A stretch of DNA of 64,000 nt from an uncultured Chloroflexia bacterium (GTDB lineage: Bacteria; Chloroflexota; Dehalococcoidia; DSTF01; WHTK01). Each line of letters starts with the position of its first letter. Positions within the stretch are counted from its first letter, which is position 1. The notes beneath the pieces were generated by a model. That model was given only the letters and a program-made list of their open reading frames with translations. It was not told the DNA's origin and did not search any database. Made by a program: the position numbers and the translations under genes. This document shows, in pieces, positions 26,818-45,610 of the stretch. The DNA is taken from assembly GCA_963731765.1 (NCBI GenBank), contig CAVSWS010000040.1, positions 17,732 through 81,731 of the forward strand, read 5' to 3'.

Positions 26818-27255
26818 GTGAAGGTATCGATGAAGGGCGACTACGGTGTTCGCGCGCTGGTCGAGCTCGCGCATCGCTACGGTGATGGGCAGCAAATGCA
26901 GAGCGCTGCGATTGCCAGTGCGCAATCGATACCGGAGCCGTACCTCGACCAGCTGCTGACAACGCTGCGCCGCGCGGGGTTCATCCGCAGCGTGCGCGGT
27001 CCCCAGGGCGGCCACTCCCTGATCCGCGACCCGCACGAGCTTCGCCTGAGCGAAGTGATCGCAGCACTGGAGGGATCGCTGGCGCCGATAGCGTGCCTGG
27101 ACGACCCGGAGGGATGTCGCAAGACGGCGAGTTGCAGCCTGCGACCGGTGTGGCAGGAGATCGAAGCTGCTACGATGCGCGTCCTGGACAGCATCACCAT
27201 CGCCGACCTGGCGGAGCGCGAGCGGGCCGGCAGCAGCGCAAGATACGCGATCTAG
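26818..27255 (+). CDS. Rrf2-family regulator (IscR/CymR-like) with three Cys
   Basis: KGDYGVRAL, YLDQLL, SVRGPQGG, CLDDPEGCRKTASC. Confidence 0.93.
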   Translation: MKVSMKGDYGVRALVELAHRYGDGQQMQSAAIASAQSIPEPYLDQLLTTLRRAGFIRSVRGPQGGHSLIRDPHELRLSEVIAALEGSLAPIACLDDPEGCRKTASCSLRPVWQEIEAATMRVLDSITIADLAERERAGSSARYAI

Positions 27256-27266
27256 AAGGGGGCGAA

Positions 27267-28196
27267 GTGCAGGCAAGAACGGAACAACGCATCGCAAACG
27301 GCGCCCTCGACCTGATCGGCGGCACACCGCTCGTGCGCCTGGAGAAGATCCGGCCGGCGGGCGGGGCAGAGATCCTGGCCAAGATGGAGGCGTTCAACCC
27401 CGGCGGCAGCGTGAAGGACCGCATTGCCCTCGCGATGGTCGAGGACGCGGAAGAGCGCGGACTGCTGAAGCCGGGCGGGACGATCGTGGAGCCGACGTCG
27501 GGCAACACCGGTATCGGCCTGGCAGTGGTGGCGGCGGCGAAGGGATACAAGCTGATCCTGACGATGCCGGACGACTACAGCGTTGAGCGCCGCAAGCTGG
27601 TGCAGCGTTTCGGCGTCCAGCTGATCCTGACGCCGGCGATCGAAGGCATGACGGGCGCAGTGTTCGCGGCGGAGGAGCTGGTGGCGAAGAACCCCAACTA
27701 CTACATGCCGCAGCAGTTCGATAACCCGGCCAACCCGGCGGTGCACCGACGGACGACGGCGCAGGAGATCCTGCGAGACACGGACGGCCGCCTGGATGCG
27801 TTCGTTGCGGGCGTGGGCACGGGCGGCACGATCACCGGCGTCGGCGAGGTGTTGAAGGAGCGCATACCGGGTGTGCTGATCGTGGCGGTGGAGCCGTCGC
27901 GGTCGCCGGTGCTGGCGGGAGGCAAGCCGGGTCTACACGCGATCCAGGGCATCGGCGCGAGCTTCGTGCCCGGCGTGCTGAACCGCGATGTCTACGACGA
28001 GCTGATCGCCGTGAAGGACGACGAGGCGACGGAGATGGCGAAACGGATCACTCGTGAGGAGGGACTGCTGGTCGGCATCTCCTCCGGCGCCAACGTGTTC
28101 GCGGCGGTGAAAATCGCGCAACGGTTGGGTGCTGACAAGCGAGTGGTAACATTGCTTCCAGATACCGGGGAGAGGTATCTGAGCGTAAACTTCTAG
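27267..28196 (+). CDS. cysK: Cysteine synthase A
   Basis: IGGTPLV, NPGGSVKDR, EPTSGNTG, QQFDNPAN, GVGTGGT, HAIQGIG, PDTGERYLS. Confidence 0.95.
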   Translation: MQARTEQRIANGALDLIGGTPLVRLEKIRPAGGAEILAKMEAFNPGGSVKDRIALAMVEDAEERGLLKPGGTIVEPTSGNTGIGLAVVAAAKGYKLILTMPDDYSVERRKLVQRFGVQLILTPAIEGMTGAVFAAEELVAKNPNYYMPQQFDNPANPAVHRRTTAQEILRDTDGRLDAFVAGVGTGGTITGVGEVLKERIPGVLIVAVEPSRSPVLAGGKPGLHAIQGIGASFVPGVLNRDVYDELIAVKDDEATEMAKRITREEGLLVGISSGANVFAAVKIAQRLGADKRVVTLLPDTGERYLSVNF

Positions 28197-28236
28197 AGTC
28201 AGGAACAAGGAATCAGGAACAGGGAACAAGAAGCAT
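28194..28236. repeat. Degenerate heptamer tandem array (AGGAACA/AGGAATC)
   Basis: aggaaca aggaatc aggaaca gggaaca agaagca directly after the cysK stop. Confidence 0.65.
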
Positions 28237-28408
28237 CGAAGCGCGAGTGCTGTGAACCGCGCGGCCACGTTTGCCAGAGCCTGCTTGCAGGTGGAGGCGC
28301 ATCGAAAAGCGTGACCGGAGCCGTTATTTAGATGATTTCGCTGGCCGCAGTAGCGGCTACGTCCAAGAGAGATAGTGTGCGAGTATGGAGAGTGCGGGAG
28401 GAAAGCCC

Positions 28409-29527
28409 ATGATCAGTGTCTATATCCCTACGCCCTTCCGAAGCTTCGTTGGTAATCGGACCAACGTGGAAGTGGAAGGCAACAACGTCGCCGAGGTGAT
28501 CAAAGCCCTCGACGTCCGATTCCCCGGCTTCCGCAACCTGTGTTACGACTCCAAAGGCACGATCCCGACGCACATCAACATCTACGTCAACAACACGGAG
28601 ATCAACGCCCTGGACGGCGAGGCGACGAAGCTTTCGACCGGCGACCAGGTGGCGGTGATCCCGGCACTCGCCGGTGGAGCCGACGTGGCAGAAGAGGAAA
28701 AGAAGCCTTCCGAGTACGCGCTGACGCCTGAGCGGGTGACGCGGTACTCGCGCCACATCATCATGAACCAGGTCGGCAGCCTGGGGCAGCGCAAGATCTT
28801 TGACGCCAAGGTGCTCATCGTGGGTGCCGGCGGCCTCGGGTCACCGGTGGCGTTGTATCTGGCCCTCGCGGGCGTCGGTACGCTGGGCCTCGTCGACTTC
28901 GACGTGGTCGACCTGTCGAACCTGCAGCGCCAGATCCTGCACCAGAACGACGACATCGGTAAGCGCAAGGTGGTATCGGCTCGGGAGACGCTGAACGCGT
29001 ACAACCCGGACGTGAAGGTGATCACGCACGAGGAGCCGCTGCACTCCGAGAACGCGCTGGAAATCCTCAAGGACTACGACATCATCGTTAACGGCGCGGA
29101 CAACTTCGCGGTGCGTTACCTGGTGAACGACGCGTGTGTGTTCCTGAAGAAGCCGCTGGTAGACGGTTCGATCCTGCTGTTCGACGGCCAGGCGACCGTG
29201 TACCTGCCGGGGCGGGGCTGCTACCGCTGCCTCTACCCGACGCCTCCCCCACCCGGGATGGTCCCCTCCTGCGCGGAGGCCGGCGTGCTCGGCGCGCTGT
29301 GCGGGACGGTAGGTTCCATCCAGGCCACGGAGGTGCTGAAGCTGATTCTCGGCATCGGCGAGAGCCTCAACGGGCGCCTGTTGCTCTACGATGCTCTGGC
29401 GATGGAGATGCGTCAGGTGAAGGTCCGCCGCGACCCGAACTGCGTGGTTTGTGGCGATAACCCCACGATTACGGAATTGATCGACTATGACGAGTTCTGC
29501 GGGACACCCCCCGCCTGGCAGGAGTAA
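28409..29527 (+). CDS. MoaD/ThiS ubiquitin-like domain fused to MoeB/ThiF adenylyltransferase
   Basis: VYIPTPFR...INIYVN...IPALAGG, then RYSRH, GAGGLGS, SNLQRQ, CYRC, SCAEAG, CVVC; no rhodanese domain. Confidence 0.92.
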   Translation: MISVYIPTPFRSFVGNRTNVEVEGNNVAEVIKALDVRFPGFRNLCYDSKGTIPTHINIYVNNTEINALDGEATKLSTGDQVAVIPALAGGADVAEEEKKPSEYALTPERVTRYSRHIIMNQVGSLGQRKIFDAKVLIVGAGGLGSPVALYLALAGVGTLGLVDFDVVDLSNLQRQILHQNDDIGKRKVVSARETLNAYNPDVKVITHEEPLHSENALEILKDYDIIVNGADNFAVRYLVNDACVFLKKPLVDGSILLFDGQATVYLPGRGCYRCLYPTPPPPGMVPSCAEAGVLGALCGTVGSIQATEVLKLILGIGESLNGRLLLYDALAMEMRQVKVRRDPNCVVCGDNPTITELIDYDEFCGTPPAWQE

Positions 29528-29530
29528 AGA

Positions 29531-29806
29531 GTGCCCGTAGAGGTCCGCGTAACATCGGTTCTCCAGCGCGTCATCGGCGCAAAGTCCGTCGAGGCGGAAG
29601 GCAAGACGATCGCCGAGGTATTGCAGGGCATCGAAGCCCGGTACCCCGGCTTTCGGGAGCAGATCACCATGGAAGATGGCTCGCTGCACCGCTTCGTCAA
29701 TATTTATGTCAACGACGAAGACATCCGGTTCATGCAGCAGCTGGAGACACCGGTGGCAACGGGCGACGTCGTATCGATCCTGCCCGCGCTGGCGGGCGGC
29801 GCTTAA
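29531..29806 (+). CDS. MoaD/ThiS/CysO-type sulfur carrier ending GGA
   Basis: LHRFVNIYVNDEDIRF...ILPALAGGA*. Confidence 0.92.
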   Translation: MPVEVRVTSVLQRVIGAKSVEAEGKTIAEVLQGIEARYPGFREQITMEDGSLHRFVNIYVNDEDIRFMQQLETPVATGDVVSILPALAGGA

Positions 29807-29847
29807 TACAAACGGAGGGAAGCTCGCGGTGATAAGCAAGCCCGCTC

Positions 29848-29890
29848 TACCCCTCCCCTTAACCCCCTCCCCGTCTGCGGAGAGGGGGAA
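29848..29890. repeat. CCCCTCCCC...GGAGAGGGG palindromic repeat
   Basis: Same family as 24301 and 37033. Confidence 0.6.
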
Positions 29891-29997
29891 GCACGTCTTC
29901 TCCGCGGAACCGGCCGGGAGTTCTCTCCACAGGTCGGGGCCGAGAGCCCGAGACGGCCAGAAGGTCAATAAGAATGGTTACTACCCCTCATCGCGTC

Positions 29998-30933
29998 ATG
30001 CTGTATAGAAGCATGCTTGATCTAATCGGCAATACACCGCTGGTGGAGATGCCGAACCTGAGCCCTTCGCCCACGGTGCGCTTTTTCGCGAAGCTGGAGG
30101 GGCAGAACCCGACCGGCAGCGTGAAGGACCGCATCGCCAAGGCGATGATCGAGGCGGCGGAGCGAGACGGCAAGCTGACGCCGGGCTGCACGATCCTGGA
30201 GCCGACGTCCGGCAACACGGGCGTGTCGCTGGCCTTCGTGGCGAAGCTGAAGGGCTACAAAGTCAAGGTCGTGATGCCGGACAACATGAGCCCGGAGCGC
30301 ACGTCGCTGCTGCGGGCCTACGGCGCCGAGATCGTGTACTCCGAAGGCGTCAAGGGCACCAACGGCTCGATTGTCGTGGCGCAGGAGATGGCGGAACAGG
30401 ACCCGAGCCTGGTGATGCTGTACCAGTACGGCAACGACGCCAACCCCGGCGCGCACTACGAGAGCACGGGGCCGGAGATCCTGCGGGACCTGCCGGAGAT
30501 CGACGTCTTCGTGGCGGGCCTGGGCACCGGCGGCACGCTGACGGGCACGGGTCGCTACTTGAAGGAAAAGAAGCCCAGCGTGAAGGTCGTGGCTTCGGCG
30601 CCGCACCCCGGCGACCGAGTGCAGGGGCTTCGCAGCCTGGACGAGGGGTTCATCCCGCCGGTGCTGGACCAGTCGCTGCTGGACGGTCGCATCGTGGTGG
30701 ACTCGAAGAACTCGTTCGCGGCCACGAAGGAGCTTTTGGACAAGGAAGGCATCTTCGCGGGCATTTCGGGCGGCGCGACGCTACGGGCGGCTCAGCGCGT
30801 AGGGTCTCGCATGGACCGGGCGAACATCGTGCTGCTGCTGGCGGACGGCGGGTGGAAATACCTTTCGACCGACCTGTGGAACACGGAGTACGAGGACCTG
30901 GCGGACGACCTGGACGAGAAGACCTGGTGGTAA
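29998..30933 (+). CDS. cysM: Sulfur-carrier-dependent cysteine synthase (CysM-type)
   Basis: KLEGQNPTGSVKDR, LYQYGN, GLRSLDEGFIP, ADGGWKYLST and a C-terminal Trp, as in mycobacterial CysM; follows a CysO-like carrier. Confidence 0.85.
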   Translation: MLYRSMLDLIGNTPLVEMPNLSPSPTVRFFAKLEGQNPTGSVKDRIAKAMIEAAERDGKLTPGCTILEPTSGNTGVSLAFVAKLKGYKVKVVMPDNMSPERTSLLRAYGAEIVYSEGVKGTNGSIVVAQEMAEQDPSLVMLYQYGNDANPGAHYESTGPEILRDLPEIDVFVAGLGTGGTLTGTGRYLKEKKPSVKVVASAPHPGDRVQGLRSLDEGFIPPVLDQSLLDGRIVVDSKNSFAATKELLDKEGIFAGISGGATLRAAQRVGSRMDRANIVLLLADGGWKYLSTDLWNTEYEDLADDLDEKTWW

Positions 30934-41331: not shown

Positions 41332-42009
41332 GTGACGGTTGGGGCGATTGTTGTGGCGGCGGGGAGCAGCACTCGGATGGGTGGTGGCGACAAGCTGCAG
41401 CTGGTTGTAGGCGGGCAGCCGGTGCTGTCGTACTCGATGGCGGTTTTCGATGGGCATGAGGGCATCGATGCAGTGGTGGTTGTTGCGTCGGAGGCTAACG
41501 TCGAGGCCGTAAGGACGATGGCATCGCAGTTTGCCAAGGTGCGCGTCGTGCTGGGCGGGATGCGGCGGCGCGATTCCGTGGCGTGCGGGCTCGAGGCGCT
41601 GGAGGGGTGCGAGATCGTGGTGGTGCACGATGGGGCACGGCCGCTGGTGACTCGCGAGCTCATCGATGCGGCGATCGAGGGGGCGAGAGAGACCGGGGCA
41701 GCACTGTGCGCCGTGCCGGTGTCGGACACGGTGAAGCGGGCCGAGGAGTCCGGGTTGGTGCGGGGGACGGTGTCTCGGGAGCACCTGTGGCTGGCGCAGA
41801 CACCGCAGGCGTTCCGAGTGGATGTGCTGCGCCGGGCTCACGCCGCACACGACATCGACGCGACTGACGATGCAGCGCTGGTGGAGCTGATCGAGGAGCC
41901 GGTGCGGCTGGTGATGGGGAGCCGGGAGAATATCAAAGTCACAACACCTGACGACCTGCCGTTGATCGAAGCGCTTATGGCGGCGCGGCGCCGATATACT
42001 GAGCGCTAA
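41332..42009 (+). CDS. ispD: 2-C-methyl-D-erythritol 4-phosphate cytidylyltransferase
   Basis: AAGSSTRMG..DK, GGMRRRDSV, VHDGARP, AQTPQAF, TDDA, NIKVTTPDD. Confidence 0.95.
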   Translation: MTVGAIVVAAGSSTRMGGGDKLQLVVGGQPVLSYSMAVFDGHEGIDAVVVVASEANVEAVRTMASQFAKVRVVLGGMRRRDSVACGLEALEGCEIVVVHDGARPLVTRELIDAAIEGARETGAALCAVPVSDTVKRAEESGLVRGTVSREHLWLAQTPQAFRVDVLRRAHAAHDIDATDDAALVELIEEPVRLVMGSRENIKVTTPDDLPLIEALMAARRRYTER

Positions 42010-42554
42010 TGCAGACGAACAAACCGGTGCTCATCCTGATGGCAGGCCTACCGGGCTCCGGGAAGAGCACGCTGGCGCTCGCCGTGGGCCGGCGGCTGAA
42101 CTGGCCGGTGATCGACAAGGACACGGTGAAGAGCGGGTTGCTGGACCTGGGCGCGGAGGAAGAACTCGCGGCGCAGGCATCCTACGTGCTGCTGCATGAG
42201 TTCGCGCGAGACCTGGTCGTCGGGCAAGGGCTCTCGGTGGTACTCGACACGCCTTCCTCTTACGAACGGGTGATCGAGACGTGCAGCAAGATTGCCGAGG
42301 AGGGGGACGGGGCACTTTGCATCGTCCTGTGCGAGGCGAGCGTCGACACACGGGCCGAGCGCCTGCGCACGCGGAATCGCCGTTCGTCCCACGTCGCGGC
42401 GGTCGACCCCGAGGCTGAGGCCGTGATCACGAAGCGATTCGAGAAGCTGCCGAAGACGGCGCTTCGATTGTCCACAGAGGGTCCTGCAGAGGACCTGATT
42501 GATGAAGTGGTGTACTTCGCCATGCAGGCCGGGAGTGAGGAAGAGGATCGGTGA
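42009..42554 (+). CDS. P-loop kinase (AAA_33-like)
   Basis: MAGLPGSGKSTLA, IDKD, VVLD, lid RAERLRTR. Confidence 0.85.
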   Translation: MQTNKPVLILMAGLPGSGKSTLALAVGRRLNWPVIDKDTVKSGLLDLGAEEELAAQASYVLLHEFARDLVVGQGLSVVLDTPSSYERVIETCSKIAEEGDGALCIVLCEASVDTRAERLRTRNRRSSHVAAVDPEAEAVITKRFEKLPKTALRLSTEGPAEDLIDEVVYFAMQAGSEEEDR

Positions 42555-43024
42555 GAGTCGGGCAAGGGTACGACGTGCATCCGTTCGATGACGGCAAGCC
42601 GCTGGTACTGGGCGGCGTCGTGTTCGAGGGCGAGCGCGGGCTGAAGGGCCACTCGGACGGCGACGCGCTGACGCACGCGGTGATCGACGCGCTGCTGGGC
42701 GCCGCGGCGCTGGGCGACATCGGCTCGCACTTCCCGAGCACAGACGAGAAGTATCGGGGCGCCGATAGCATCGAGCTGCTGAAGCGGGTGTGCCGTTTGA
42801 TCGCGGCGAAGGGGTGTCGGATCGCCAACGTGGATACGATCGTGGTGGCAGAGAAGCCGCGAATGGCACCTCGGGTCGGGGATATGCAGTCGCGGCTGGC
42901 GTTCGCGATGGGGTTGGACCTGACGCAGGTGAGCGTGAAGGCGACGACGACGGACGGCCTGGGCGCTGTCGGGCGCGGCGAGGGGATCGCGGCGCAGGCG
43001 GTGGCGCTGATCGAGGAGTCGTAG
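42551..43024 (+). CDS. ispF: MEcPP synthase
   Basis: MRVGQGYDVH, GHSDGD, DIGSHFP, SVKATT. Confidence 0.96.
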   Translation: MRVGQGYDVHPFDDGKPLVLGGVVFEGERGLKGHSDGDALTHAVIDALLGAAALGDIGSHFPSTDEKYRGADSIELLKRVCRLIAAKGCRIANVDTIVVAEKPRMAPRVGDMQSRLAFAMGLDLTQVSVKATTTDGLGAVGRGEGIAAQAVALIEES

Positions 43025-43032
43025 GGGCTGAG

Positions 43033-43180
43033 ACCCCTCCCTTAATCCCTCCCCGTTTACGGAGAGGGACATCTCGCTGTACCGGGAATTGTGGCGTTGG
43101 CAGGCGCCTTTGGGGCGGGGAAGCTTCACTCCGTTTGCTGCGGTCAGCCCTCCTCCCTGCGGGGCGAAAAGGGGAGCCTG
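43033..43180. repeat. Extended dispersed repeat, copy 3 of 3
   Basis: Aligns with 37033 and 41144. Confidence 0.85.
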
Positions 43181-43277
43181 CTACGAGCCGGTGATAAACC
43201 TATAGCAGGCCGCCGATTGCCCGATTGCCCGATTGGCCGTGAGGCTTCTGCCGGTCAGACTCGGTGGGGGCGCTGTA

Positions 43278-43420
43278 TGTTATATTGCGCAGGTCTTATG
43301 AGTCCTAGCCGCCTTACCTGTATCTGTCGATAGGGCGTCCGTTCCTCGGGCTGAGGGCGGGCTCCCGCTTCAGAGAGGGCGTCGGGTCAGACGCCGATGC
43401 AGGTCCAGGAGGCAAGCCGA
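43278..43420 (+). promoter_or_regulatory. cysE leader: extended -10 promoter and candidate Cys-sensing attenuator
   Basis: TGT-TATATT; 43311-43324 is complementary to 43396-43413, which covers the SD. Confidence 0.65.
43298..43333 (+). CDS. Candidate leader peptide MSPSRLTCICR
   Basis: 11-codon ORF with two TGT codons near its end, upstream of cysE-cysS. Confidence 0.6.
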   Translation: MSPSRLTCICR

Positions 43421-44116
43421 GTGTCCCTTCTCAAGAGCATCCATCGAGACATACGAGCAGCGTTGGATCGCGATCCGGCGGCGCACAGTGCTGTCGCGGT
43501 GGTGTTGAGCTACCCGGGGTTTCATGCTCGGCAGATGCACCGGCTGGCGCACTGGTTCTACGTGAACGGGGTGCCGGTGCTGCCGGGGGCGACGGCGTTC
43601 GTGAGCCGGTTGCTGACGGGCATCGAGATTCACCCGGCGGCGCAACTGGGCGAGGGGTTGTTCATCGACCACGGCATGGGCGTGGTGATCGGCGAGACGT
43701 CGATCATCGGCGATGATTGTCACCTGGCTCAGGGCGTCACGCTGGGCGGCACGAGCACGCGGCGGGAGAAGCGACACCCCACGTTGGGCAACAACGTCCT
43801 CATCGGGGCGGGCGCCATCGTGATGGGGAACGTCGAGATCGGCGACCACGTGCGGATCGGTGCCGGCTCTGTGGTGCTGACGAACGTGCCGCCGTTCGCG
43901 ACCGTGGTGGGCAACCCGGGCAAGATCGTGGCGTACTACGAGCCGGGTAACGACACGCGCGTGAGGCTGCCGGACCCGGAGTGGGACCGCATCGAGGAGC
44001 TGAGCCAGCGGCTCGAGGAGCTGCGCGGGCAGGTCGCGGCACTGGAGGCCGAGCTGGCCGAGCACGGGCGTCGCGCCATCGAAAGCGCGCACGTTCTGCC
44101 GCCGGGCGCCTCTTAG
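43421..44116 (+). CDS. cysE: Serine O-acetyltransferase
   Basis: RDPAA, SYPGFHA, TGIEIHPAA, FIDHGMG, GVTLGGT, KRHPT; AGGAGG SD. Confidence 0.96.
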   Translation: MSLLKSIHRDIRAALDRDPAAHSAVAVVLSYPGFHARQMHRLAHWFYVNGVPVLPGATAFVSRLLTGIEIHPAAQLGEGLFIDHGMGVVIGETSIIGDDCHLAQGVTLGGTSTRREKRHPTLGNNVLIGAGAIVMGNVEIGDHVRIGAGSVVLTNVPPFATVVGNPGKIVAYYEPGNDTRVRLPDPEWDRIEELSQRLEELRGQVAALEAELAEHGRRAIESAHVLPPGAS

Positions 44117-44227
44117 ACTGTCACGCAGGGGCTTGCTCGCCACGACATCGCATCGCCAATATGTTCAGGCAGCGATCGGTGAGAGCCGAGAGCGCGGCAC
44201 CGAGCCAGACTAGCCGGAGGATCAGGT

Positions 44228-45610
<1,383 letters not shown>

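What the first reader, a model, noticed from the sequence alone, without database searches (positions are those of the whole stretch)
43278..43423. Cys-codon leader peptide that can base-pair over the cysE Shine-Dalgarno: candidate cysteine-sensing translational attenuator
Seen: an extended -10 (TGT-TATATT) is followed 11 nt later by an ORF encoding MSPSRLTCICR* (43298-43333, TGT at codons 8 and 10). Its segment GCCUUACCUGUAUC (43311-43324) pairs with GAUGCAGGU-[CCAG bulge]-GAGGC (43396-43413), 9+5 bp including G-U, and covers the AGGAGG SD of cysE. Two hairpins fill the loop (CTGAGGGCGG/CCGCTTCAG and GGCGTC/GACGCC). Known: Cys-rich leader ORFs attenuate cys genes in Actinobacteria, and Firmicutes control cysE-cysS with a T-box; no T-box is seen here. 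Inference: a ribosome stalled at the Cys codons frees the SD and switches on cysE(-cysS). I know of no such element described in this lineage.
Basis: partly seen in the sequence, partly recalled or inferred. Interest (0 to 1): 0.82.

Follow-up and report, generated by a model that had tools for sequence, protein, structure and literature searches.

The report
Cysteine-sensing leader ORF before cysE-cysS
A tiny 11-codon upstream gene with two cysteine codons, whose RNA pairs with the ribosome-binding site of cysE, is conserved across many Chloroflexota and most likely switches on cysteine synthesis and cysteinyl-tRNA synthetase when charged tRNA-Cys runs short.

Summary
The window alone is not statistically special: the whole-leader fold has z -1.07. 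Comparison carries the case.

- **Conservation.** A short ORF ending C-x-C-(L/R/P)-stop lies 50-115 nt before cysE in 26 of 28 order-level relatives; the other two have variants. It also occurs in 11 of 28 class-level loci and 5 of 18 phylum-level loci.
- **Reading frame.** Start and stop codons sit in the Cys frame far more often than in the other two frames.
- **Pairing.** Only the uORF stretch at or just upstream of the Cys codons is complementary to its own cysE ribosome-binding site beyond what non-cognate pairs give. This held in two separate sets: 0 of 2000 permutations at each set's best window.
- **Hairpin.** A covarying hairpin starts 8 nt after the last Cys codon's first base in 31 of 35 loci.
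- **Negatives.** No T-box, no Rfam family, and no terminator between uORF and cysE.

Best reading: ribosome stalling at the Cys codons frees the Shine-Dalgarno sequence. This mechanism was shown experimentally for mycobacterial polycysteine sORFs. It is therefore a new member of a known kind, undescribed in Chloroflexota in my searches. This scan has noted other Cys-codon leaders in Chloroflexota before, on different DNA.

The parts
43278..43286 (+). Extended -10 promoter element TGTTATATT (TGnTAnAnT)
   Evidence: A TGnTA[TC]AnT box lies 103-161 nt before cysE in 17 of 17 family-f1 loci with upstream DNA. The -35/-10 consensus scan found no promoter, so this is an extended -10 without a -35. 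The TSS is not mapped.
43298..43333 (+). Leader ORF (uORF), MSPSRLTCICR-stop. Cys codons TGT at 43319-43321 and 43325-43327, UAG stop at 43331-43333
   Evidence: In 48 loci the Cys frame has a stop within 10 codons in 39, against 4 and 6 in the other two frames. It has an in-frame ATG upstream in 32, against 2 and 10.
43308..43324 (+). Anti-SD strand inside the uORF (codons 4-9, including the first Cys codon)
   Evidence: In the MFE, 43308-43314 pairs with 43407-43413 and 43316-43324 pairs with 43396-43404. Cognate-specific complementarity is confined to this part of the uORF.
43333..43366 (+). Conserved hairpin P1 (G-rich 5' arm, C-rich 3' arm). It starts on the G of the UAG stop, 8 nt after the first base of the last Cys codon
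   Evidence: The spacing is 8 nt in 31 of 35 loci, and fold z is below -2 in 34 of 35. On 20 loci, 8 of 10 pairs change on both sides and 0 of 500 shuffles reach the covariation score.
43378..43395 (+). Variable hairpin P2 (GGCGUC / GACGCC)
   Evidence: It is not conserved in sequence or presence: the shortest relative, L009, has P1 only.
43396..43413 (+). 3' strand of the sequestering helix, including the Shine-Dalgarno AGGAGG (43407-43412)
   Evidence: The mean unpaired probability of the SD is 0.18 in the free leader.
43421..44116 (+). cysE, serine O-acetyltransferase (GTG start)
   Evidence: TIGR01172, E 8.4e-64, 214.5 bits against a cut-off of 210.65. The start aligns with residue 1 in 30 relatives.
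44228..45610 (+). cysS, cysteine--tRNA ligase, 111 nt after cysE
   Evidence: TIGR00435, E 5e-149. cysS follows cysE on the same strand in nearly all loci that carry the element.
42551..43024 (+). ispF, the conserved upstream neighbour (context, not part of the switch)
   Evidence: TIGR00151, E 3.6e-60. The ispF-leader-cysE-cysS order is conserved.

Best explanation
This is a ribosome-read sensor of charged tRNA-Cys that controls translation of cysE, and with it probably cysS.

**How it would work.**
- An extended -10 promoter starts an mRNA with almost no 5' leader.
- An 11-codon ORF on that mRNA is translated.
- The 3' half of the ORF contains two Cys codons (UGU-AUC-UGU). It is also one strand of a long-range helix whose other strand holds the cysE Shine-Dalgarno sequence.
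- When Cys-tRNA is plentiful, the ribosome reaches the UAG and leaves. The helix closes around hairpins P1 and P2, and cysE initiation is blocked.
- When Cys-tRNA is scarce, a ribosome waits with a Cys codon in its A site. It covers the anti-SD strand, the SD stays free, and cysE is translated. cysS would follow by co-transcription.

**What is shown by computation.** The conserved ORF, its frame and its Cys codons; cognate-specific uORF-to-RBS complementarity; the conserved P1 hairpin at fixed spacing; and the absence of a T-box or terminator.

**What is inferred.** The TSS, translation of the uORF, stalling, the response to cysteine, and co-transcription of cysS.

P1's role is not known. Its fixed position puts its base at the mRNA entry of a ribosome decoding the last Cys codon, so it may hold or slow the ribosome there. 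That is speculation.
For: **1. Conservation.**
- C-x-C ORFs occur in 26 of 28 order-level loci with at least 200 nt of upstream DNA. L010 has S-V-C and L024 has C-C.
- The same motif plus P1 is present in 11 of 28 class-level loci and 5 of 18 phylum-level loci read.
- It is also present in 3 of 80 broad loci, all Chloroflexota, plus 1 weak hit elsewhere.

**2. Reading frame (48 loci).**
- A stop lies within 10 codons in 39 loci in the Cys frame, against 4 and 6 in the other frames.
- An in-frame ATG lies upstream in 32 loci, against 2 and 10.

**3. Peptide outside the Cys codons.** It is not conserved; see the peptides listed.

**4. Pairing, family f1.**
- With 17 loci, cognate uORF-half x RBS duplexes average -23.8 kcal/mol against -21.0 for non-cognate pairs; 1 of 10000 permutations reaches this.
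- With 15 loci, among 25 sliding windows only those at -30..+11 relative to the last Cys codon are both strong (-17.7 to -22.2) and better with their own RBS. The difference is -2.4 to -2.7, with p of 0.0025, 0/2000 and 0.002.

**5. Pairing, independent set.** In 24 loci from other families the same test peaks at -42..-7, with difference -3.0 and 0 of 2000 permutations.

**6. Examples of uninterrupted helices.** L132 has 10 bp, formed by the Cys-Ser-Cys codons themselves against the SD. L115 has 9 bp. L005 and L124 have 11 bp.

**7. Footprint folding.**
- In f1 the RBS opening energy is 9.4-17.8 kcal/mol when free.
- It falls by a mean of 7.1-7.2 with the A site at the first Cys codon or up to two codons before it. 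It falls by 4.6 at the stop, and by 0.3-1.4 for most footprint positions over P1/P2.
- In the window it goes from 12.5 to 6.7.

**8. No intrinsic terminator** lies between the uORF and cysE. **No T-box or other Rfam family** matches.

**9. Target genes fit the signal.**
- The 13 best covariance-model hits in 151 genomes break down as 10 before cysE-cysS, 1 directly before cysS, and 2 elsewhere.

**10. Precedent.** The mechanism has experimental support: in M. smegmatis a polycysteine tract at the 3' end of a leaderless sORF pairs with the SD of Ms5788, and stalled ribosomes block that structure (10.1101/834739, abstract and passages).
Against: - There are no transcript, TSS or ribosome data. 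No RNA run was listed.
- The window's leader is not unusually stable (z -1.07).
- G+C-rich flanking windows often pair with the RBS as well: 5 of 52 for the window, and 32 of 52, 40 of 52 and 29 of 52 for L008, L014 and L019.
- Three f1 loci are no better than shuffles, with z of +0.31, +0.62 and -0.04.
- With a footprint at the first Cys codon the window's SD is still only 0.40 unpaired in the model, because it re-pairs locally.
- In 6 of the 11 loci of families f2-f5 (L021, L022, L023, L024, L026, L027) a single 30-nt footprint at the Cys codons relieves the RBS little or not at all, and in L030 only at the second Cys codon. The anti-SD there lies 20-45 nt further upstream, so queued ribosomes would be needed.
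- In 9 of 48 loci the ORF runs 18-35 codons past the Cys codons, through P1 and up to the cysE start. This does not fit the simple model.
- Three f1 loci (L012, L014, L016) have no canonical in-frame start after the -10 box.
- The 5' leader implied by the -10 box is only about 4-5 nt and has no SD. Initiation must therefore be leaderless-like, which is untested in this lineage.
- Loci are related, so permutation p-values overstate independence.
Confidence: 0.65

Rival explanations
1. Same Cys-codon sensor, but the output is transcriptional. When the leader ribosome leaves quickly, the roughly 90-nt untranslated spacer and an untranslated cysE 5' end let Rho, or a weak terminator, stop transcription. 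Stalling or cysE translation prevents this.
For: Cys leader peptides without terminators in Actinobacteria were first explained this way (PMC1262725, passages). Earlier notes of this scan read other Chloroflexota Cys leaders as transcription attenuators (unchecked). SD sequestration and Rho polarity can act together.
Against: No terminator-like site lies between 43334 and 43420; the two sites found lie at 43244-43275, upstream of the uORF. By eye the spacer is G-rich and highly structured (P1, P2), which suits Rho loading poorly. Cognate-specific complementarity targets the RBS itself.
Confidence: 0.13
2. The uORF is a constitutive ribosome-delivery or helix-opening device. Its translation simply unfolds the SD helix or allows re-initiation, raising cysE translation independently of cysteine. 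On this view the Cys codons are a by-product of the sequence needed to pair with the SD region.
For: In 9 of 48 loci the ORF runs up to the cysE start, which looks like coupling. Any footprint in the second half of the uORF relieves the RBS, not only one at the Cys codons. Re-initiation at leader peptides has been proposed as a general enhancer (PMC4833913, search listing only).
Against: Two Cys codons are kept in frame across several classes while the pairing register and partner sequence change. The last one is always the minor codon TGT, which has a genome share of 0.22. The element sits only before cysE or cysS.
Confidence: 0.1
3. An untranslated RNA switch (ligand-, protein- or temperature-sensing) built on P1 and the SD helix, in which the short ORF is incidental.
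For: Conservation is at nucleotide level: C-UGU-C, with the base after the last Cys codon being C in 34 of 43 loci. P1 is conserved in sequence and position.
Against: Frame statistics favour translation. A start codon sits 7-12 nt after the -10 box in 12 of 17 f1 loci (read by eye). No Rfam family matches. P1's loop and inner stem vary freely.
Confidence: 0.07
4. Chance ORF and chance pairing in G+C-rich DNA, with no function.
For: Single-sequence statistics are weak.
Against: Conservation holds across order, class and phylum, with covariation.
Confidence: 0.02

Closest known systems
Mycobacterial polycysteine leaderless short ORF attenuators (Ms5788A and the 'Cys ribulon'; Canestrari et al. 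2020, 10.1101/834739)
   Same: A short ORF at the very 5' end of the mRNA has Cys codons at its 3' end. These codons pair with the SD of the downstream cysteine-related gene. A ribosome stalled for lack of Cys-tRNA blocks the sequestering structure. Control is translational and there is no terminator.
   Different: - Different phylum and no sequence likeness.
- Two Cys codons separated by one codon (C-x-C) rather than a run.
- A conserved hairpin sits at a fixed 5-nt spacer after the last Cys codon.
- The target is cysE-cysS.
- The element is single-copy in this genome, not a multi-operon set.
- A 5' leader of a few bases is likely, rather than a strictly leaderless start (TSS unmapped).
- Nothing has been tested experimentally here.
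Cys T-box leader of the Firmicutes gltX-cysE-cysS operon (recalled from general knowledge, not from a call)
   Same: Same regulated genes (cysE-cysS) and same physiological signal, the charging state of tRNA-Cys. The neighbourhood, with ispD and ispF upstream, is also similar.
   Different: A T-box binds uncharged tRNA directly and usually acts by antitermination. Here no T-box model matches, and the sensor is a translating ribosome.
Classical leader-peptide transcription attenuators (trp, his, leu, thr; Actinobacterial Cys and Leu leaders, PMC1262725)
   Same: A leader ORF enriched in codons of the regulated amino acid. Ribosome position selects between RNA folds. In the LEU element the codon run pairs with the SD of leuA.
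   Different: There is no intrinsic terminator or antiterminator pair. The output is SD access.
ermC / cat / cmlA translational attenuation
   Same: A stalled ribosome on a short leader ORF opens a helix that hides the SD of the next gene.
   Different: Stalling there depends on a drug and the nascent peptide. Here it would depend on the supply of one aminoacyl-tRNA.

Membership tests
Mycobacterial polycysteine LL-sORF attenuators | sORF begins at the transcription start (leaderless) | tested here: inconclusive
   The -10 box ends 11 nt before the ATG in the window. The gap is 7-12 nt in 12 of 17 f1 loci (read by eye). This implies a 0-5 nt leader with no SD. The TSS is not mapped and no RNA run was listed.
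Mycobacterial polycysteine LL-sORF attenuators | Run of consecutive Cys codons at the 3' end of the sORF | tested here: not met
   The window has C-I-C. Most relatives have C-x-C, and only a few have CC, CCC or CCCC, for example L024, L026, L127 and L031.
Mycobacterial polycysteine LL-sORF attenuators | Cys-codon region base-pairs with the SD region of the downstream gene | tested here: met
Mycobacterial polycysteine LL-sORF attenuators | Expression of the downstream gene rises on cysteine limitation and depends on the Cys codons | not testable with these tools
   Needs reporters or proteomics.
Classical leader-peptide transcription attenuator | Leader ORF with codons of the regulated amino acid | tested here: met
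Classical leader-peptide transcription attenuator | Intrinsic terminator (GC hairpin plus U run) between leader ORF and structural gene, with a competing antiterminator | tested here: not met
   One search found no terminator-like site in 43334-43420. P1 and P2 are not followed by U runs.
T-box riboswitch | Match to the Rfam T-box model (specifier loop, T-box sequence) | tested here: not met
   There was no T-box hit even at E up to 10 in 42500-44500. At gathering score there were 0 hits in 20 related loci.
Translational attenuation of the ermC type (mechanistic class) | SD of the regulated gene sequestered by pairing with leader-ORF sequence, and opened by a ribosome held on the leader ORF | tested here: inconclusive
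   Pairing is met. Modelled opening is met: mean relief 7.1 kcal/mol in f1. Actual stalling was not tested.

The most novel reading that the evidence does not exclude
The invariant hairpin P1 is part of the sensor. Its first base pair lies 5 nt after the last Cys codon, which is always the wobble-read minor codon UGU. Sitting at the mRNA entry of a ribosome that decodes the Cys codons, P1 would slow or hold the ribosome exactly there. On this reading two Cys codons are enough to read Cys-tRNA charging, where mycobacteria use runs of Cys codons. This would be a hairpin-assisted, ribosome-read aminoacyl-tRNA sensor. It would also be an old, phylum-wide replacement of the Cys T-box in Chloroflexota, controlling the tRNA synthetase itself: in L171 the element lies directly before cysS.
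Probability: 0.25. Interest if true: 0.65.

Novelty: new member of a known kind. Interest (0 to 1): 0.5.

Why it matters
- **New phylum.** It extends ribosome-read cysteine sensing with SD sequestration, so far shown only in mycobacteria, to a distant and largely uncultured phylum.
- **Convergence.** It shows that cysE-cysS, T-box-controlled in Firmicutes, is put under control of the same signal by a different device.
- **A usable marker.** The family is compact: a uORF with C-x-C, a 5-nt spacer, a G-rich hairpin, and an anti-SD strand inside the ORF. It is absent from Rfam. It can be used to annotate leaders in Chloroflexota genomes assembled from environmental samples and to flag unannotated small ORFs.
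- **A testable design question.** The fixed hairpin raises the question of how few regulatory codons a leader peptide needs.

Tried and rejected
- **RNA evidence.** No RNA holder was listed for 43000-44300, so the TSS and expression could not be examined.
- **The search for related loci on genome contigs.** It served for naming the phylum and as a negative control, not for close relatives.
- **RNAalifold on the MAFFT alignment of 39 cores.** It predicted 0 pairs. The five outer P1 pairs on that alignment showed no covariation: 73.4% paired, and shuffles were equal. The cause was that the two P1 classes were one column out of register; the re-aligned subset A2 gave clear covariation.
- **Idea that P1's 3' arm pairs with the SD when a terminating ribosome covers its 5' arm (a trp-like four-segment logic).** Rejected. 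Neither P1 arm is better matched to its own RBS than to others: 3446 of 5000 and 2391 of 5000 permutations reach the cognate value.
- **Idea of a multi-operon Cys regulon in this genome.** Not supported. A promoter-plus-Cys-ORF scan gave only the cysE leader, one weak candidate (C29) and hits inside genes. A motif-plus-hairpin scan gave only the cysE leader as a strong hit. cysK follows an Rrf2 regulator gene without a uORF.
- **Model R1.** It was built without most f1 rows, and under the strict filters of the 151-genome search it did not re-find the window's own copy. Its counts are therefore lower bounds.
- **Earlier-findings look-ups.** Searches by place and by sequence found nothing on this DNA.
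Full report
**Setting.** The window carries the following genes in order:
- ispD (41332-42009);
- a small AAA_33 kinase-like gene (42009-42554; Pfam hit);
- ispF (42551-43024);
- a 396-nt gap;
- cysE (GTG 43421-44116; TIGR01172, E 8.4e-64);
- cysS (44228-45610; TIGR00435, E 5e-149).

The genome is 64% G+C. The best named cysE relatives are Chloroflexota genomes assembled from environmental samples (65% and 61% identity) and Dehalococcoidales (56%). The lineage is therefore an uncultured Chloroflexota, placed by the tool in a class that also holds small Dehalococcoidales-like genomes.

**Observation.**
- TGTTATATT at 43278-43286;
- ATG at 43298, 11 nt later;
- the ORF MSPSRLTCICR-stop at 43298-43333, with TGT at codons 8 and 10;
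- the two strands 43311-43324 and 43396-43413;
- AGGAGG at 43407-43412, 8 nt before the GTG that aligns with residue 1 of cysE in 30 relatives.

The minimum-energy fold contains the long-range helix. In it, 43316-43324 pairs with 43396-43404 and the SD strand 43407-43413 pairs with 43308-43314. It also contains the GGCGUC/GACGCC hairpin.

Taken alone, the window is not remarkable:
- The leader folds no better than shuffles: z -1.07, with 27 of 200 shuffles folding at least as well.
- The uORF-half x RBS duplex beats its own shuffles: z -3.2, reached by 1 of 300. But 5 of 52 other windows of the G+C-rich upstream DNA pair with the RBS as well.
- The consensus promoter scan found nothing.
- The only terminator-like sites lie upstream of the uORF.

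**Conservation of the ORF.**
- cysE was found in 41 of 41 related genomes. Of 30 loci fetched, 28 have at least 200 nt upstream; L004 and L029 are cut.
- A short ORF ending C-x-C-(L/R/P)-stop, or running a few codons further, lies 50-115 nt before cysE in 26 of the 28. L010 has S-V-C and L024 has C-C. These loci span five families of one order.
- In a sample of one genome per family across the class, 11 of 28 loci carry the motif plus hairpin. Three have one-Cys variants (L119, L126, L131). Five cysE-cysS loci lack it, two of them because ispF abuts cysE. None of the nine loci with cysE identity under 50% and no ispF or cysS neighbour has it.
- In a phylum sample, 5 of 18 loci read have it, from three further families. 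L156 comes from an unpublished genome and was left out.
- Among 80 loci of mixed phyla, a strict motif-plus-hairpin scan hit 3 Chloroflexota records, one of them Thermomicrobiales, and 1 weak Vulcanimicrobiota site. L032, also Chloroflexota, has the motif with a differently starting hairpin.

**Is it translated?** Four lines of evidence bear on this.
- Over 48 loci, the Cys frame has a stop within 10 codons of the last Cys codon in 39. The other two frames have one in 4 and 6.
- The Cys frame has an in-frame ATG upstream, with no intervening stop, in 32 loci, against 2 and 10.
- The peptide outside the Cys codons is not conserved.
- In family f1 an extended -10 box is present in 17 of 17 loci.

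For start codons, read by eye:
- An ATG follows the -10 box after 8-12 nt in 11 loci.
- A GTG follows after 7 nt in L009 and after 16 nt in L010.
- An ATG follows after 19 nt in L019.
- Three loci (L012, L014, L016) have no canonical in-frame start.

This short gap, with no SD, implies leaderless or near-leaderless initiation. That is the architecture of the mycobacterial Cys sORFs.

**Pairing with the ribosome-binding site.**
- In f1 (17 loci), cognate duplexes between the uORF 3' half and the RBS average -23.8 kcal/mol against -21.0 for non-cognate pairs. Only 1 of 10000 permutations reaches this.
- A sliding test was run on 15 f1 loci, with near-duplicates L002 and L007 dropped. Of 25 windows, only those at -30..+11 relative to the last Cys codon are both strong and better with their own RBS. 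The difference is -2.4 to -2.7, with p of 0.0025, 0/2000 and 0.002. One distant window reached p 0.0155, and several were worse than non-cognate.
- An independent set of 24 loci from other families, with L027 and L030 dropped, gives the same result slightly further upstream. The peak is at -42..-7, with difference -3.0 and 0 of 2000.
- The register and partner sequence change between lineages while pairing is kept. In L132 the Cys-Ser-Cys codons are a perfect 10-bp complement of the SD. L115 has 9 bp. L005 and L124 have 11 bp.

Against this:
- Energy alone is weak. Mean z against shuffles is -1.54.
- Three loci are no better than shuffles.
- Other G+C-rich windows are often as good.

**Footprint modelling.**
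- In f1, opening the RBS (-16..+3) costs 9.4-17.8 kcal/mol in the free leader.
- A 30-nt footprint lowers this by a mean of 7.1-7.2 when the A site is at the first Cys codon or up to two codons before it.
- The relief is 4.6 at the stop codon, and 0.3-1.4 for most footprint positions over P1 and P2.
- In the window the cost falls from 12.5 to 6.7-7.5 for A sites 43308-43335, and not at all from 43341 on.
- In 6 of the 11 loci of families f2-f5 a single footprint at the Cys codons relieves the RBS little or not at all, because the anti-SD lies further 5'.

**Hairpin P1.**
- A hairpin with a G-rich 5' arm starts 8 nt after the first base of the last Cys codon in 31 of 35 loci. The other four have spacings of 5, 7, 7 and 9 nt.
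- Fold z is below -2 in 34 of 35.
- On a 20-sequence alignment, 86.7% of cells pair and 8 of 10 pairs change on both sides. No shuffle reaches the covariation score (0 of 500), and slid controls stay at or below 0.153 against 0.369 observed.
- In f1 the first G of P1 is the last base of the stop codon. This explains why the stop is UAG in 16 of 17 f1 loci.
- Neither arm of P1 shows cognate complementarity to the RBS, so a trp-like four-segment scheme is not supported.
- The last Cys codon is TGT at the conserved site in all 43 loci tallied. TGT makes up 22% of Cys codons in this genome's long open frames.
- The site was first found with a pattern that allowed either codon, although later scripts anchored on TGT.
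- P1's function is open.

**Specificity.**
- In this genome the element is single-copy.
- A covariance model of the core (R1) was searched in 151 Chloroflexota genomes and matched 23 at E up to 0.01.
- Of the 13 best hits (E up to 5.4e-4), 10 lie before cysE-cysS. One lies between ispF and cysS with no cysE. Two lie elsewhere: before a gene I read by eye as queF-like, and inside a large gene.
- The weaker hits, with E above 0.002, mostly look like chance hits inside coding regions.
- The model missed the window's own copy, so these counts are lower bounds.

**Known systems.**
- No Rfam family matches the window at E up to 10. At gathering score none matched 20 related loci, so this is not a T-box.
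- Cys leader peptides were predicted in Actinobacteria in 2005, with the mechanism left open (PMC1262725, passages).
- In 2020 polycysteine leaderless sORFs of M. smegmatis were shown to act by the mechanism proposed here. The Cys tract pairs with the SD of the next gene, and stalled ribosomes block the structure (10.1101/834739, abstract and passages).
- Searches for a description in Chloroflexota found nothing relevant (some searches gave only the papers above).
- Earlier notes of this scan report Cys-codon leaders before cysK-cysE, a rhodanese operon and sulfite reductase in other Chloroflexota. Those were read as transcription attenuators. They are unchecked here and lie on unrelated DNA.

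**Verdict.** It is a new member of a known kind. It is distinguished by the C-x-C design, by the fixed hairpin, and by its target, the cysE-cysS pair that Firmicutes control with a T-box. I give 0.65 to the full mechanism. The main open points are the TSS, actual stalling, the role of P1, and the 9 of 48 loci whose ORF runs on to the cysE start.

Noticed in passing
window 26818-30933: A second cysteine-related cluster lies here. It holds an Rrf2-family regulator gene (26818-27255), cysK (27267-28196, TIGR01139 453.6 bits), a ThiS-ThiF fusion (28385-29527) and a second PALP enzyme (29974-30933). cysK has no Cys-codon uORF. The ThiS-ThiF plus PALP pair recalls the sulfur-carrier (CysO/CysM-type) route to cysteine; that comparison is from memory.
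   Followed up: partly
window 43213-43239: A tandem repeat of an 8-nt unit, CCGATTGC, with 3.4 copies, lies between ispF and the leader promoter. It is not present in the closest relative L002. The ispF-cysE gap is about 400 nt here, against about 170-190 nt in most relatives.
   Followed up: partly
G000 contig C29, minus strand, uORF start at + strand coordinate 34535: A second short ORF has the same layout: TGCTATAGT, then 11 nt, then ATG, encoding MVGKCSCE-stop. It lies 51 nt before a gene for a protein with a signal-peptide-like N-terminus. It has no G-rich hairpin at the fixed spacing, so it may be chance.
   Followed up: partly
L171 (G202:C4) about 1501-1548: Here the C-x-C leader plus hairpin lies between ispF and cysS, with no cysE in between. 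In this genome it would control the tRNA synthetase alone.
   Followed up: partly
L101 (Candidatus Eremiobacteraceae record), about 100 nt before cysE: A different, polycysteine-type uORF (...CPGCCCLCKSCCCC-stop) lies before cysE in another phylum. It looks like the mycobacterial design.
   Followed up: no
L118 (G065), ispF stop: The leader ORF start overlaps the ispF stop (ATGA). In this lineage the uORF may therefore be translationally coupled to ispF rather than started from its own promoter. In families f2-f5 a TGnTAGAGT-like box coincides with the last ispF codons.
   Followed up: no
L018, L020, L024, L032, L116, L117, L118, L122, L123: In these 9 of 48 loci the Cys-frame ORF continues 18-35 codons past the Cys codons. 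It runs through P1 and ends at or beyond the cysE start. The simple stall-and-release model does not explain them.
   Followed up: no
window 42009-42554: A 181-aa AAA_33 / zeta-toxin-like P-loop kinase gene is wedged between ispD and ispF, overlapping both by 1-4 nt.
   Followed up: no
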